Assembly: GCA_964354805.1 (NCBI GenBank)
Contig: CAYHBD010000016.1
Location: 64,001-128,000 of the forward strand
Length of the DNA stretch: 64,000 nucleotides
Source of the DNA: an uncultured archaeon
Lineage (GTDB): Archaea; Iainarchaeota; Iainarchaeia; Iainarchaeales; GCA-2688035
Reading direction: 5' to 3'
Shown: positions 54,404 through 57,889 of the stretch, piece by piece
How positions within the stretch are numbered: the stretch's first letter is position 1
Layout: the number at the start of each line of letters is the position of its first letter
Notes under the pieces: model-generated
Told to the model about the DNA's origin: nothing
The model's input: only the letters and a program-made list of their open reading frames with translations
Databases searched by the model: none
Program-made: the position numbers and the translations under genes

Positions 54404-54847
54404 TTACCGCTTTCTCCCCATTATCATTACCGCATCTTGTATATCCCCAAAATAAGCGCCGAATTCATGTAACAGATCTTCAGTTTTGTGTAACCCCAAT
54501 GTTATCGGGTTTGTATTAATTACGCTTGTCATTTGTCCTCTCTTAACAAAATATTCCCCGCAAAGAACAGCCAGTTCGTATTTTCCTTCCCATATTTGTT
54601 TTCTCCTTTCCAAAAATTCGTCACGTTTCCTTTTGAGAACCGATAAATCTTTTTCTTCAAAGCAATCAACTGAGTATGCTTTGACATCGGTCCCAAGTTT
54701 TTCAGTAGCAGTTATCAATGCAGCAGCTTTTTGTCGCATTGTCCTCATTACGGCGATTTTCTTTGCCGTCGACAGGTTGAGGAATTTTTTTGAAAGCAAA
54801 TTTCTTGGAACTCTCCTGATGTAATTCCTTTTCTGCATAAAAATCAC
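54404..54847 (-). CDS. Hypothetical protein
   Basis: 147 aa AT-rich ORF; GTG overlaps the stop of the stranded ychF tail (alternative ATG 54838). Confidence 0.6.
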   Translation of the reverse strand: MIFMQKRNYIRRVPRNLLSKKFLNLSTAKKIAVMRTMRQKAAALITATEKLGTDVKAYSVDCFEEKDLSVLKRKRDEFLERRKQIWEGKYELAVLCGEYFVKRGQMTSVINTNPITLGLHKTEDLLHEFGAYFGDIQDAVMIMGRKR

Positions 54848-54921
54848 TAGTGGCTCAGCTGTATTTTCACGACATCGTTCATTTTCAAAGCATGTTCTTT
54901 CCCTAATTTTTGTTTGCTTCT
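54847..54921 (-). pseudogene. Displaced old 3' end of ychF
   Basis: RSKQKLGKEHALKMNDVVKIQLSH* versus RTGQKISDEYELRYDDVIKILLKH* (11/24 identical, ungapped, same stop position). Confidence 0.85.
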
Positions 54922-55000
54922 TCTTTTGAGTGCATCTATTCTATAGATGGGTTTAACTCTTTAAATTAGTTTCTAAAACGCCCTTGTCAATTTTTGTTTT

Positions 55001-55165
55001 CATCTCATCACCTCCCTTGGATTGAATTTTTTCTTAGGACTCTGCTTTTCTCGGCTTAAACCTTTCCCTGCCTTATTGCAGGTCGGCTTCGCCTAAAGGT
55101 TTAATGCCTCCAAAAGCAGCAGAGACGTCCACGAAAAAATTCATTAAATTGGAGGTGATTCGATG
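55001..55165. other. Long imperfect inverted repeat / structured element with outward-facing RBS+ATG at both ends
   Basis: ATCACCTCC/GGAGGTGAT, TGAATTTTTTC/GAAAAAATTCA, CTGCTTTT/AAAAGCAG, TTAAACCTTT/AAAGGTTTAA, two inner hairpins. Confidence 0.75.
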
Positions 55166-55306
55166 GATTTCAAAAAATTCGATTTTCCTCTTCCAACAGA
55201 GGAGGAAATAAGGGTTGTAAAAGAGATAGCAAAAGTTGCTTCAGAGGAGCTGGATGGAAGGGATATGTGGATTTTGCGGGAGTTCTTGGAGAGTGATTCC
55301 GAATGA
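55163..55306 (+). CDS. Small acidic hypothetical protein (47 aa, absent from ORF track)
   Basis: GGAGGTGA RBS; MDFKKFDFPLPTEEEIRVVKEIAKVASEELDGRDMWILREFLESDSE*. Confidence 0.6.
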   Translation: MDFKKFDFPLPTEEEIRVVKEIAKVASEELDGRDMWILREFLESDSE

Positions 55307-55439
55307 ATCACTCTTCTTCCACTTCCACAGGAAATCTTTCCGCATGCGCAGCTGACAGCGGAAGTTTTCATAAGGAAAAAGCAGCGGAAGCCCGCTCTCT
55401 TCCAAGGGTGTTTATAATGAGAAAAAAGGGGGTTTTATT

Positions 55440-56708
55440 ATGGGTGTTGAGGAGTTAGACTTTGATTTATTCGAATTGCATGATCCAAAAGACGACAAAA
55501 AGCCGTATTTTTGGACGAAAATTGGAGGCAAAGAGATTCAATCACTATTCGAAGATTTAGTTAATAATATTTGTAAAACAAAAAATGTGAATAAAAATGA
55601 GCTGGCTAAAGAATTAAGCAAAGAGCTGGGTTGCTGTGTTTCACTTTTGCAAAAATATTTTTATTCCAAAAGGGATCTTTATCCAATCCCTTTAATCAAC
55701 CGATTACTAGACCTGCTTGAGAATGAAAATAAAAAAATGCAAATGAAAAGTTTATTTTCTAAAAAGATTGAATACTTAAAGATCGGGGGCTCTAGCCAAA
55801 GACAAAGGGCGGTTAAATATTTGACGCCAGAACAGGCAAAACTTTGCGGAGCAATTGTTGCCGATGGGTGTTTAGTAAAATCTAAAGTTGGAGAGCACGG
55901 GATTGTCATTAGGGATTATTACAAGAAAGCATTAGCAAAGACAAACGCTTGGTTCAACCAAGCCCTTGGCATTTCTTCTGTTGTGAGAAAGGACAAAGGG
56001 AAACCAAGCCATTTTCTAAAAATCGATAACAAAATTGCTGCAAATTTTTTTAACAAATTTTTTGAGATACCATTTGGAAAAAAATCAGCAATTGTTAAGG
56101 AACCACAGATAATTAAACATTCCCCATACAGGCTAGACTTTGCAGAAGGGGCACTTCTGTTTGATGGAAGTGTTGAGTTGGACTACCTGGTTTCCTATGG
56201 GACAATCAGTAAAAAGTTAGCAGAAGATTTGCTCGAAATTCTAACCCTAAATGGCTTTGAAATTGAATTAAGATATTTCAAAACAACTGGTCTGTATAGA
56301 TTACGAACTAAAAGATTAACAAGGGAGCAAACAGACAAATGGATTGCCTTTTTTGGCAAAGACACTGAGAAAGGCAGTAAGCTTTATCAAATGACTTACG
56401 GCTTTCCAAATAGGGTGGGCTCTGTGGGTTATTTCATGTTTGCAATTTCAAATTTCTGCAATTTTGCAAACAGTTCAAAGATTTCAATTAAAGACGTCTT
56501 CGCCGCAATAAAAGAAAATAATTGCGTAACAAAGGCGACTTTGAAAGATATTCTAAGAATTGGAACAAGCACTCTTTACAAATATTTATGGATCCTAGAA
56601 AAAACAAACTCAATCAAAGCTGAAAAATTTAATGGCGGTGAAAATAGAGAAAACAAATATTCTTACAATCCAAATATTTGGGAATGGCGTGCGCCATCAA
56701 AGCTTTAA
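55440..56708 (+). mobile_element. Free-standing HTH-LAGLIDADG-wHTH homing endonuclease gene (copy 2)
   Basis: AKLCGAIVADG and DFAEGALLFDG motifs; shares DLF.LHDP N-terminus, YP, EPQIIK and NP.I..W..P C-terminus with copy 1. Confidence 0.85.
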
Positions 56709-57889
56709 TGCTTAAGTAGAATCTTGATCACATCATCATATCGCAATTCATATTCGTCAGAAATTTTTTGGCCTGTTCTGCAATTGATGGCCCCCATATA
56801 CCTATCCAAAAAACTGCTGTGGACTTTGCCAGCTAAATCTTTTGTAGTGCTCCCTTTTTTCATTAGATATGCATCTGGAAGAACCTGCCCTTGCCCATTA
56901 GCCAGTTTATGCTGGTCCTCTACAGGATAAACAACAATCAGCTTTAGCAGTTCAAAAGCTGTTTTATTAATTGCCTGCTGAACCCCTGTGCTGCCCCAAA
57001 CATCCAGCATATGCGTTTGAATAAAGTCAAGCGCGTGCTTCTGCTGTTCATTCATGTTGCCCTTTGCACTAAACTCTTTCGCACCAGGAACATAATCAAT
57101 CAATCCAGTCCTTGCAGCTTTCCTCAGCGTTAACTCTGCTTCAGCGCAGCATGGCACAAAAATCTTTTCTGGGAATTCCTTTTTCAATTTTTCAAAGTTC
57201 TCTTTTGCCTGGGGCAAATCCATTTTGTTGCATGCAATCAGCATTGGCTTGCTCCTCTGCCTTATTGCTGACGCAAACCTAAGCACTTCCTCTTCATTCC
57301 ACTCGCTTGGCTTTGGGCCGAAATGCTCGCTTTCAAAAACATCTTTCACCTGTCCTTCACCCATTCCAAGCCCGCTTAACTGATCTGCAATCGGCTCCCA
57401 GGGCTTGCTGCTTGCTGTAGCGCCCTTGCTTATCTTTGCCCAGTTCTTTTCCAAAATCCCGCGCACCCAGTAATCAATCTCTTTCTCCAAAAACCTGACA
57501 TCGTTTGCAGGATCATGACCTTTTGCCGGATTTCCCTCTGCATCAGTTGTGCCGCTGCAATCCAAAACATGAATCAGTGCAGCTGCCTGCATTAAATCGT
57601 TCATAAACTGGTTGCCCAATCCCTTGCCCTGCCATGCTCCCTCGATCAATCCCGCAACATCCAGCAAAGTTGCGGGAATCAGCCGAATGCCATTCTCGCA
57701 TTTGCTGTTCTGGGGCATGCACTGCTTTCCAAACTCAGGGTGCACGCATTTTGCCGTAACATACCCAGTTCCTTGGTTCGGCTTTATTGTTACAAAAGGC
57801 CTGTTTCCAATCTCAGCATCAACAAGCGAGGCAGCGCTGAAAAAGGTAGTTTTTCCGGTGTTTGTTTTTCCAACAATTCCAATCTGCAT
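56705..57889 (-). CDS. ychF: YchF/Obg-family ATPase/GTPase (archaeal type, TGS domain)
   Basis: GKTNTGKTT, PF.TI.PN.G, DVAGL, GLGNQF, NKMD, VLPDA. Confidence 0.93.
   Translation of the reverse strand: MQIGIVGKTNTGKTTFFSAASLVDAEIGNRPFVTIKPNQGTGYVTAKCVHPEFGKQCMPQNSKCENGIRLIPATLLDVAGLIEGAWQGKGLGNQFMNDLMQAAALIHVLDCSGTTDAEGNPAKGHDPANDVRFLEKEIDYWVRGILEKNWAKISKGATASSKPWEPIADQLSGLGMGEGQVKDVFESEHFGPKPSEWNEEEVLRFASAIRQRSKPMLIACNKMDLPQAKENFEKLKKEFPEKIFVPCCAEAELTLRKAARTGLIDYVPGAKEFSAKGNMNEQQKHALDFIQTHMLDVWGSTGVQQAINKTAFELLKLIVVYPVEDQHKLANGQGQVLPDAYLMKKGSTTKDLAGKVHSSFLDRYMGAINCRTGQKISDEYELRYDDVIKILLKH

What the first reader, a model, noticed from the sequence alone, without database searches (positions are those of the whole stretch)
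54847..57889. Second LAGLIDADG gene inserted at the ychF 3' end with the old tail stranded 1.8 kb away
The endonuclease (+) and ychF (-) overlap by 4 nt at their stops. Beyond the endonuclease, a 47-aa ORF and a long palindrome lies RSKQKLGKEHALKMNDVVKIQLSH*, matching the live tail at 11/24 aa ungapped with the same stop position. Its TAG still overlaps the GTG of the next gene, preserving what looks like the pre-insertion junction. The geometry is the same as at nre but the target gene is unrelated, so the family appears to retarget.
Basis: partly seen in the sequence, partly recalled or inferred. Interest (0 to 1): 0.9.

Follow-up and report, generated by a model that had tools for sequence, protein, structure and literature searches.

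The report
Homing endonuclease cassette replacing ychF tail
A selfish gene for a DNA-cutting enzyme has entered the end of a conserved GTPase gene (ychF) of a tiny archaeon, brought its own foreign version of the gene's last ~50 codons and left the original end behind as a dead stub, a lifestyle so far published only for yeast WHO elements and fungal mitochondria.

Summary
The stub at 54847-54921 (-) is the original ychF end: 21/24 identical to an endonuclease-free allele of the same family, against 11/24 to the live tail. The live gene is a mosaic. Identity to that allele falls from 84% to 43% after about codon 348, so about 50 codons were replaced, not 24. The live tail groups with tails beside the closest endonuclease relatives, including an Aenigmarchaeota genome (97/99). 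The 422-aa enzyme keeps both LAGLIDADG acidic residues and folds like I-DmoI/PI-PfuI.

Two corrections. The TAG/GTG overlap is not shown to be the ancestral junction. Retargeting is old: ychF- and nre-linked enzymes are separate, target-faithful clades (98/98, 100/100).

Added here: the hairpin and 47-aa ORF are a conserved leader module shared by several endonuclease families, and the promoter carries a box shared with radA, nurA, mcm and primase.

Best reading: a WHO-like, splicing-free homing element (0.85). Cleavage is untested. I found no published archaeal case. The scan has reported this cassette type, the box and the leader on other DNA, and this same gene pair once before (e1-3188353).

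The parts
56705..57889 (-). Host gene: archaeal YchF-type (YGR210-like) Obg-family GTPase, 394 aa, intact; mosaic of native body and foreign tail
   Evidence: Pfam YGR210-like_G4 E 2e-37, MMR_HSR1, TGS; mosaic
56705..56860 (-). Replacement tail carried by the cassette (about codons 342-348 to 394, most of the TGS domain); crossover inferred at about 56846-56869, just after the conserved LPDA motif
   Evidence: Change-point after residue 348 against L008, 84% to 43%; other relatives give earlier, looser points (270, 329). The longest stub in relatives (L052/L078) starts at the equivalent of residues 341-343. Tail clade 97/99, AU p 0.027
55440..56708 (+). Free-standing two-motif LAGLIDADG endonuclease, 422 aa: N-terminal helical domain, LAGLIDADG core (D142, D242), C-terminal winged-helix-like domain; no splicing domain seen; GC 35% against 44% for the genome
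   Evidence: Pfam LAGLIDADG_3; alignment; AlphaFold pLDDT 88.5; Foldseek PI-PfuI, I-Tsp061I, I-DmoI; GC
55382..55418 (+). Promoter: box CAGCGGAA-N5-CTCT (55382-55398) and TATA-like element (55411-55418); partial second box at 55356
   Evidence: 23 exact copies in the genome against 0-1 expected; precedes radA, nurA, mcm, priS, priL, repair enzymes and 7 LAGLIDADG genes; same box before mcm, priL and nre in relatives
55163..55306 (+). Conserved 47-aa acidic leader peptide, no known family; Shine-Dalgarno at 55151-55158
   Evidence: Homologues in 38 of 196 genomes of the order, followed by a long ORF, a LAGLIDADG relative in 26 cases; no Pfam or Atlas hit
55001..55165 (.). Conserved ~165-nt bulged hairpin whose outer stem pairs the peptide's Shine-Dalgarno with an anti-SD copy
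   Evidence: z -5.9; 5 copies in this genome; 13 of 33 consensus pairs show compensatory change in 21 sequences; no Rfam family at threshold
54847..54921 (-). Stranded original ychF tail, last 24 codons plus TAG, no start codon
   Evidence: 21/24 aa and 57/75 nt to empty allele L008, where the live tail has 11/24 and 47/75
54404..54838 (-). Rare 144-aa ORF behind the stub; probably starts at ATG 54838; not the conserved neighbour of ychF
24172..25634 (.). Companion cassette at nre: endonuclease 24172-25509 (-), the same promoter box at 25549-25565 (-), stranded nre tail 25572-25634 (+); no hairpin or peptide module

Best explanation
A splicing-free homing element of about 1.9 kb (about 54922-56860). 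It consists of a diverged copy of the last ~50 codons of ychF, the endonuclease gene on the opposite strand, a repair-type promoter and a hairpin-peptide leader. Shown: the mosaic host gene, the native identity of the stub, tail and enzyme travelling together, the intact LAGLIDADG architecture, and recurrence at the same site in many genomes. Inferred: the enzyme cuts empty ychF alleles near codons 338-350; repair by homologous recombination from an occupied allele copies in the foreign tail and the enzyme gene; the changed sequence at the crossover makes the occupied allele resistant; the old tail is pushed beyond the element and erodes from its 5' end. Also inferred: the box links expression to the host's repair and replication genes, and the hairpin keeps upstream read-through transcripts from being translated.
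For: The stub matches empty same-family alleles at 19-21/24 against 10-12/24 for the live tail. Empty-to-empty pairs show no tail drop (L008/L006: body 86%, tail 85%), while this gene against L008 goes from 83% to 43%. Body tree: with family alleles 100/99. Tail tree: with L043, L035, L038, L040 (endonuclease-linked) plus L009, L014, 97/99. AU rejects the live tail grouping with family empties (p 0.027) and the body grouping with the tail's partners (p 5e-5). The enzyme tree gives the same subclade (window, L043, L040, L035, L038; 100/97). Sixteen loci have a family enzyme tail to tail with ychF and 7 with nre; others sit at pcm, rpl15e, glyS-like and AMMECR1-like genes. Clear stubs ending at a stop lie beyond the enzyme at ychF (L050, L051, L052, L076, L127), nre (L053, L054, L057) and pcm (L126). 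Patchy presence: none of the 21 same-family ychF matches shows the enzyme where the neighbourhood was read. Decay as expected of a selfish gene: stops in L057 and L058, IS200-type tnpA inside the 83%-identical copy L043. Acidic residues kept at both motifs.
Against: No empty allele from the same species or genus was available, so the exact junction is not seen, and change-points against more distant relatives scatter (residues 270-348). The tail tree rests on 49 columns. About half of the family loci show no detectable stub (L035, L040, L041, L049, L055, L075, L125, L045, L046, L060). L009 and L014 have a live-type tail with no enzyme or stub beside it: donors or scars, not resolved. The base-shuffle null is lenient (one false hit in L074). 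At this locus the peptide-coupled ATG at 55303 is out of frame with the enzyme.
Confidence: 0.85

Rival explanations
1. Intronless homing as in T4 seg/mob genes: the enzyme gene sits next to ychF, the foreign tail is only a co-conversion tract, and the stub is a by-product of one old illegitimate insertion, not a designed rescue part. This differs from the best reading mainly in how fixed the carried tail is.
For: Many loci lack a stub. Change-points vary. L009 and L014 have live-type tails without the enzyme. Co-conversion is documented for T4 free-standing endonucleases (PMC2988022).
Against: The enzyme gene lies between two copies of the gene end, so it entered inside the coding sequence. 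Stubs recur at three different host genes, and the longest starts at the same motif as the change-point here.
Confidence: 0.08
2. The enzyme is a domesticated regulator or repair protein (WhiA-like) in the host's repair regulon, and the tail duplication is only a fossil of its arrival.
For: Its promoter carries the box of radA, nurA and mcm. It has extra DNA-binding domains and a weak WhiA match.
Against: Patchy distribution, low GC, pseudogenised and IS-interrupted copies, kept catalytic acids, and a phylogeny that follows the target gene rather than the host.
Confidence: 0.04
3. The cassette was inserted by another agent (an integrase, or an IS200/REP-type HUH transposase acting on the hairpin), with the endonuclease as passenger.
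For: A long conserved hairpin sits at the element edge. A Y1 transposase lies in the related locus L043.
Against: No integrase in any locus read. The L043 transposase interrupts the enzyme gene. The nre cassette and the L035/L038/L040 ychF cassettes have the same geometry without the peptide module. The hairpin keeps a fixed position before a peptide SD.
Confidence: 0.03

Closest known systems
WHO elements of Torulaspora and Lachancea yeasts (PMC7282813; bioRxiv 10.64898/2026.08.13.744650)
   Same: A LAGLIDADG gene downstream of a conserved host gene; integration replaces the host gene's 3' part with a carried variant; old 3' fragments are left behind; no splicing.
   Different: WHO proteins are intein-zinc-finger fusions related to HO, target FBA1 and form tandem clusters. 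Here the protein has helical and winged-helix-like extra domains and no splicing domain or zinc finger was seen. It is single-copy at the site, lies antisense to the host gene, occurs in archaea, and sister clades use several target genes.
Fungal mitochondrial mobile ORFs forming gene hybrids: Allomyces macrogynus atp6; Glomus atp6, atp9, cox2, nad3 (PMC3630166)
   Same: Foreign C-terminus plus endonuclease ORF, with the native C-terminus displaced about 1 kb downstream and closer to relatives than the inserted one. The same test gives the same result here.
   Different: Organellar. The ORF is part of the host transcript and sometimes in frame with the gene. Here it is convergent with the host gene and has its own archaeal promoter and leader.
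Free-standing seg/mob endonucleases of T-even phages, intronless homing (PMC2988022)
   Same: Endonuclease gene outside any intron or intein, next to its presumed target; RNA hairpins that hide a ribosome-binding site control translation.
   Different: GIY-YIG or HNH families, intergenic, no carried gene end or stranded tail. Here the hairpin hides the SD of a separate conserved peptide.
Archaeal intein- and intron-encoded LAGLIDADG enzymes (PI-PfuI, I-Tsp061I, I-DmoI)
   Same: Fold of the nuclease core: Foldseek E 1e-9 to 1e-6, TM 0.69-0.70 by target for I-DmoI and I-Tsp061I; profile match to PI-PfuI E 4e-11.
   Different: Those are hidden from the host by RNA or protein splicing. This one is free-standing.

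Membership tests
Monomeric two-motif LAGLIDADG endonucleases | Two LAGLIDADG helices, each ending in an acidic residue | tested here: met
   GAIVADG (D142, invariant) and ALLFDG (D242; D or E across the alignment)
Monomeric two-motif LAGLIDADG endonucleases | LAGLIDADG fold | tested here: met
   Model pLDDT 88.5; best matches PI-PfuI, I-Tsp061I, I-DmoI
Monomeric two-motif LAGLIDADG endonucleases | Site-specific DNA cleavage | not testable with these tools
   Needs an assay
WHO-type (3'-replacing) homing elements, as a mechanism | Host gene 3' part replaced by a carried variant, host ORF intact | tested here: met
   Change-point and discordant trees
WHO-type (3'-replacing) homing elements, as a mechanism | Displaced native 3' fragment beyond the endonuclease gene | tested here: met
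   Stub 21/24 to an empty allele; recurs in relatives
WHO-type (3'-replacing) homing elements, as a mechanism | Enzyme cuts empty alleles and spares its own | not testable with these tools
   Needs an assay
WHO elements proper | Intein-zinc-finger fusion protein related to HO, at FBA1 | tested here: not met
   No Hint or zinc-finger family hit; profile matches to inteins cover only their nuclease part; the target is ychF
Fungal mitochondrial mORF gene hybrids | Native tail closer to relatives than the inserted tail | tested here: met
Fungal mitochondrial mORF gene hybrids | Mitochondrial location, ORF within the host transcript | tested here: not met
   Archaeal chromosome; ORF antisense to the host gene with its own promoter
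Intein- or intron-encoded endonucleases | ORF inside a splicing element within the host reading frame or RNA | tested here: not met
   Host ORF is continuous; the enzyme is on the other strand; no Rfam intron match in 54300-55500
Type I toxin-antitoxin module (considered for hairpin plus peptide) | Small hydrophobic toxin with an antisense antitoxin RNA | tested here: inconclusive
   SD sequestration fits, but the peptide is acidic, has no family hit, and usually overlaps the start of the endonuclease frame; no RNA data

The most novel reading that the evidence does not exclude
DPANN archaea carry a large, multi-target class of splicing-free homing elements that rewrite the ends of conserved genes and are regulated. 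Their enzymes use the host's DNA-repair promoter box, so cutting is timed to when RadA and NurA are made, and unrelated endonuclease families share a portable hairpin-peptide leader that gates or tempers the nuclease.
Probability: 0.4. Interest if true: 0.8.

Novelty: new variant of a known kind. Interest (0 to 1): 0.65.

Why it matters
The 2026 WHO paper'-replacing elements a third and much rarer class of homing element than introns and inteins. These data show the same layout in archaeal chromosomes, with 186 family representatives at E<1e-30 (only a sample checked for context) and stable clades at several essential genes. If cleavage is confirmed, it means (1) the ends of conserved DPANN genes are exchanged across lineages, which biases gene trees; (2) allele exchange by recombination occurs in uncultured DPANN cells; (3) the stub and the empty alleles predict each enzyme's target, giving a ready panel of new meganucleases; (4) the shared promoter box gives a handle on an undescribed DPANN repair regulon.

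Tried and rejected
Stub from another TGS gene: the genome's other TGS genes (C18, C42) are intact and elsewhere, and the stub is 21/24 to ychF. Rejected.
Recent duplication of the live tail: 41/75 nt to the live tail but 50-57/75 to empty alleles. Rejected.
GTG overlap as ancestral junction: not supported.
Recent retargeting inside this genome: the two enzymes fall in separate clades. The AU test of ychF monophyly is void, because I left L125 unlabelled although it is a ychF locus; the statement rests on the tree (98/98), with L128 unresolved outside.
Extension of the stub beyond 24 codons: one relative (L017) aligns about 19 more bases with a 9-base gap; not accepted.
Scars at L009 and L014: no old tail found.
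Rfam, Pfam and ESM Atlas gave nothing for the hairpin or peptide.
Box upstream of radA in five other genomes: no clear exact match; the box varies by lineage and is absent before L035/L038/L040, so the regulon link is shown only for this family.
GC of live tail (38%) against body (47%) is not used as evidence, since the stub is also 38%.
Eight paper searches that ran found no archaeal description; most subscription journals are not covered.
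Full report
1. Observation. All stated features are present. The endonuclease (55440-56708, +) and a YchF-type, YGR210-like Obg GTPase (56705-57889, -) overlap by 4 nt at their stops. A start-less 24-codon frame with stop at 54847-54921 (-) matches the live C-terminus at 11/24 with the same stop position. It beats all 200 shuffles and scores E 1.4e-7 in a genome-wide six-frame scan with an HMM of ychF tails from other loci. The hairpin (55001-55165) has z about -5.8 on both strands. The host is a 1.38-Mb archaeal genome; gene content and neighbours point to DPANN, probably Iainarchaeota (my inference, not tested).

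2. The stub is the native tail. In 40 of 41 genomes ychF was found. The closest alleles without the enzyme match the stub at 19, 21 and 19 of 24 (L006, L008, L011), but the live tail at 12, 11 and 12. At DNA level the stub has 57/75 bases in common with L008, the live tail 47/75, and stub and live tail share 41/75. No empty allele has a second tail copy.

3. The live tail is foreign and longer than the stub. Against L008 the protein is 75-91% identical in blocks up to residue 340 and 50% after it. The best change-point is after residue 348 (84% to 43%); empty-to-empty pairs show no such drop. More distant alleles give earlier points (270, 329), so the junction is approximate. The longest stub in a relative (L052/L078, about 55 codons) begins at the equivalent of residues 341-343, right after the conserved LPD motif. 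I place the crossover at about 56846-56869. The body groups with same-family alleles (100/99). The tail groups with tails beside the enzyme's nearest relatives, including an Aenigmarchaeota genome, and with two enzyme-free alleles of other families (97/99). AU tests reject the alternatives (p 0.027 and 5e-5). The enzyme tree recovers the same subclade (100/97). Tail and enzyme travel together; the body stays with the host.

4. The enzyme. It keeps an acidic residue at both LAGLIDADG motifs (D142, D242). The model is confident (pLDDT 88.5) and matches PI-PfuI, I-Tsp061I and I-DmoI. No splicing domain or zinc finger was found. GC is 35% against 44% for the genome. The family has 186 representatives at E<1e-30. 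Copies decay: stops in L057 and L058, and an IS200-type transposase inside the 83%-identical copy L043.

5. Recurrence and retargeting. Family members lie tail to tail with ychF in 16 loci, nre in 7, and with pcm, rpl15e, glyS-like and AMMECR1-like genes in others (the last three named from their tails by my own recognition). One relative (L129) has no convergent partner called. Clear stubs are seen at ychF (5 other loci), nre (3 others plus this window) and pcm (1); about half the loci show none. The ychF enzymes form a clade of 15 (98/98) and the nre enzymes a clade of 7 (100/100). The two enzymes of this window are 30% identical. So the family has changed target several times in the past, but each lineage is target-faithful; the two cassettes here are independent invasions.

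6. The junction claim. Empty alleles of this family mostly abut the conserved 96-aa gene tail to tail. Here a nucleotidyltransferase gene and a rare 144-aa ORF lie between. That ORF has homologues in 2 of 195 other genomes, at unrelated loci, aligning from the ATG at 54838. The GTG overlap is not evidence of an ancestral junction. The stub's last bases may serve as that ORF's ribosome-binding site, which could help keep them (inference).

7. The parts between stub and enzyme are conserved. The 47-aa peptide has homologues in 38 of 196 genomes. In about 35 loci it is preceded by the same hairpin, and its stop usually overlaps an in-frame start of a long ORF, a LAGLIDADG relative in 26 cases, from several families. 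The hairpin has five copies in this genome, one 93% identical on another contig. Thirteen of 33 consensus pairs covary, and the outer stem pairs the peptide's Shine-Dalgarno. No Rfam, Pfam or Atlas family matches. Here the coupled ATG (55303) is out of frame, so the enzyme probably relies on its own promoter. That promoter has the box CAGCGGAA-N5-CTCT 12 nt before a TATA element: 23 exact copies in the genome against 0-1 expected. The box precedes radA, nurA, mcm, priS, priL, a Cas4-like nuclease, two radical-SAM repair-type genes and, allowing one mismatch, seven LAGLIDADG genes. It precedes mcm, priL, nre and endonuclease genes in related genomes. The leads for box and leader came from earlier scan notes; I tested them here.

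8. Mechanism. Most likely (0.85) a splicing-free homing element. Inferred steps: the enzyme cuts an empty allele near codons 338-350; recombination copies in the foreign tail and the enzyme gene; the altered site protects the occupied allele; the old tail is stranded and erodes. The mosaic, the co-travel and the recurrence are shown; cleavage, resistance and regulation are not.

9. Known systems. It works like yeast WHO elements (PMC7282813; 10.64898/2026.08.13.744650) and fungal mitochondrial mORF gene hybrids (PMC3630166). It is not a member of either: different protein architecture, antisense layout, archaeal host. Hairpin control of translation recalls T-even endonuclease genes (PMC2988022). 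I found no published archaeal case, within a library that lacks most subscription journals. The scan has reported the cassette type at sod, ahcY, gatD, pheS, nre and other genes, and this gene pair once. Those notes are not independent support.

10. Verdict. Real feature; new variant of a known kind; interest 0.65. It is a clean, directly testable example, because empty alleles, the stub and the crossover define the candidate target.

Noticed in passing
G000 genome-wide; window 55382 and 25549-25565: A 17-bp promoter box with 23 exact copies marks DNA repair and replication genes and LAGLIDADG genes: a candidate DPANN repair regulon. Its core resembles the Orc1/Cdc6 ORB box from memory; not tested.
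   Followed up: partly
G000:C28:21687-22004, C35:82746-82913, C30:47154-47328, C4:2277-2425: Four more copies of the hairpin leader. The C28, C35 and C30 copies lie before LAGLIDADG genes of other families; the C28 copy is 93% identical to this one although the enzymes are unrelated, which suggests the leader moves between cassettes.
   Followed up: partly
L052/L078/L080 and L055: The reverse arm of the hairpin supplies an SD and ATG for an outward-facing ORF (288 aa in L052, resembling a sugar-nucleotide reductase), lying between enzyme and stub: possible cargo or outward expression signal.
   Followed up: no
L043:137-559: An IS200-type Y1 transposase gene interrupts the closest relative of the endonuclease (83% identical).
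   Followed up: partly
L009 (G033), L014 (G037): ychF alleles with the cassette-type tail but no adjacent enzyme or stub: donors of the tail or scars after loss.
   Followed up: partly
L050, L051, L052, L055, L076: In one genus the stub of one genome resembles the live tail end of another (KKP and NKR endings), which hints at repeated rounds of tail replacement as in WHO clusters.
   Followed up: no
window 53779-54838: Two genes (a nucleotidyltransferase and a rare 144-aa basic protein) sit between the stub and the conserved neighbour; the spot behind ychF varies among relatives.
   Followed up: partly
G000:C18:13069-15312: radA of this genome carries an intein-like insert (Pfam Intein_splicing, weak; 748-aa frame).
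   Followed up: no
L083, L086: A reverse-transcriptase-like ORF (motif YVDD) lies just upstream of the hairpin-peptide leader of two endonuclease genes.
   Followed up: no
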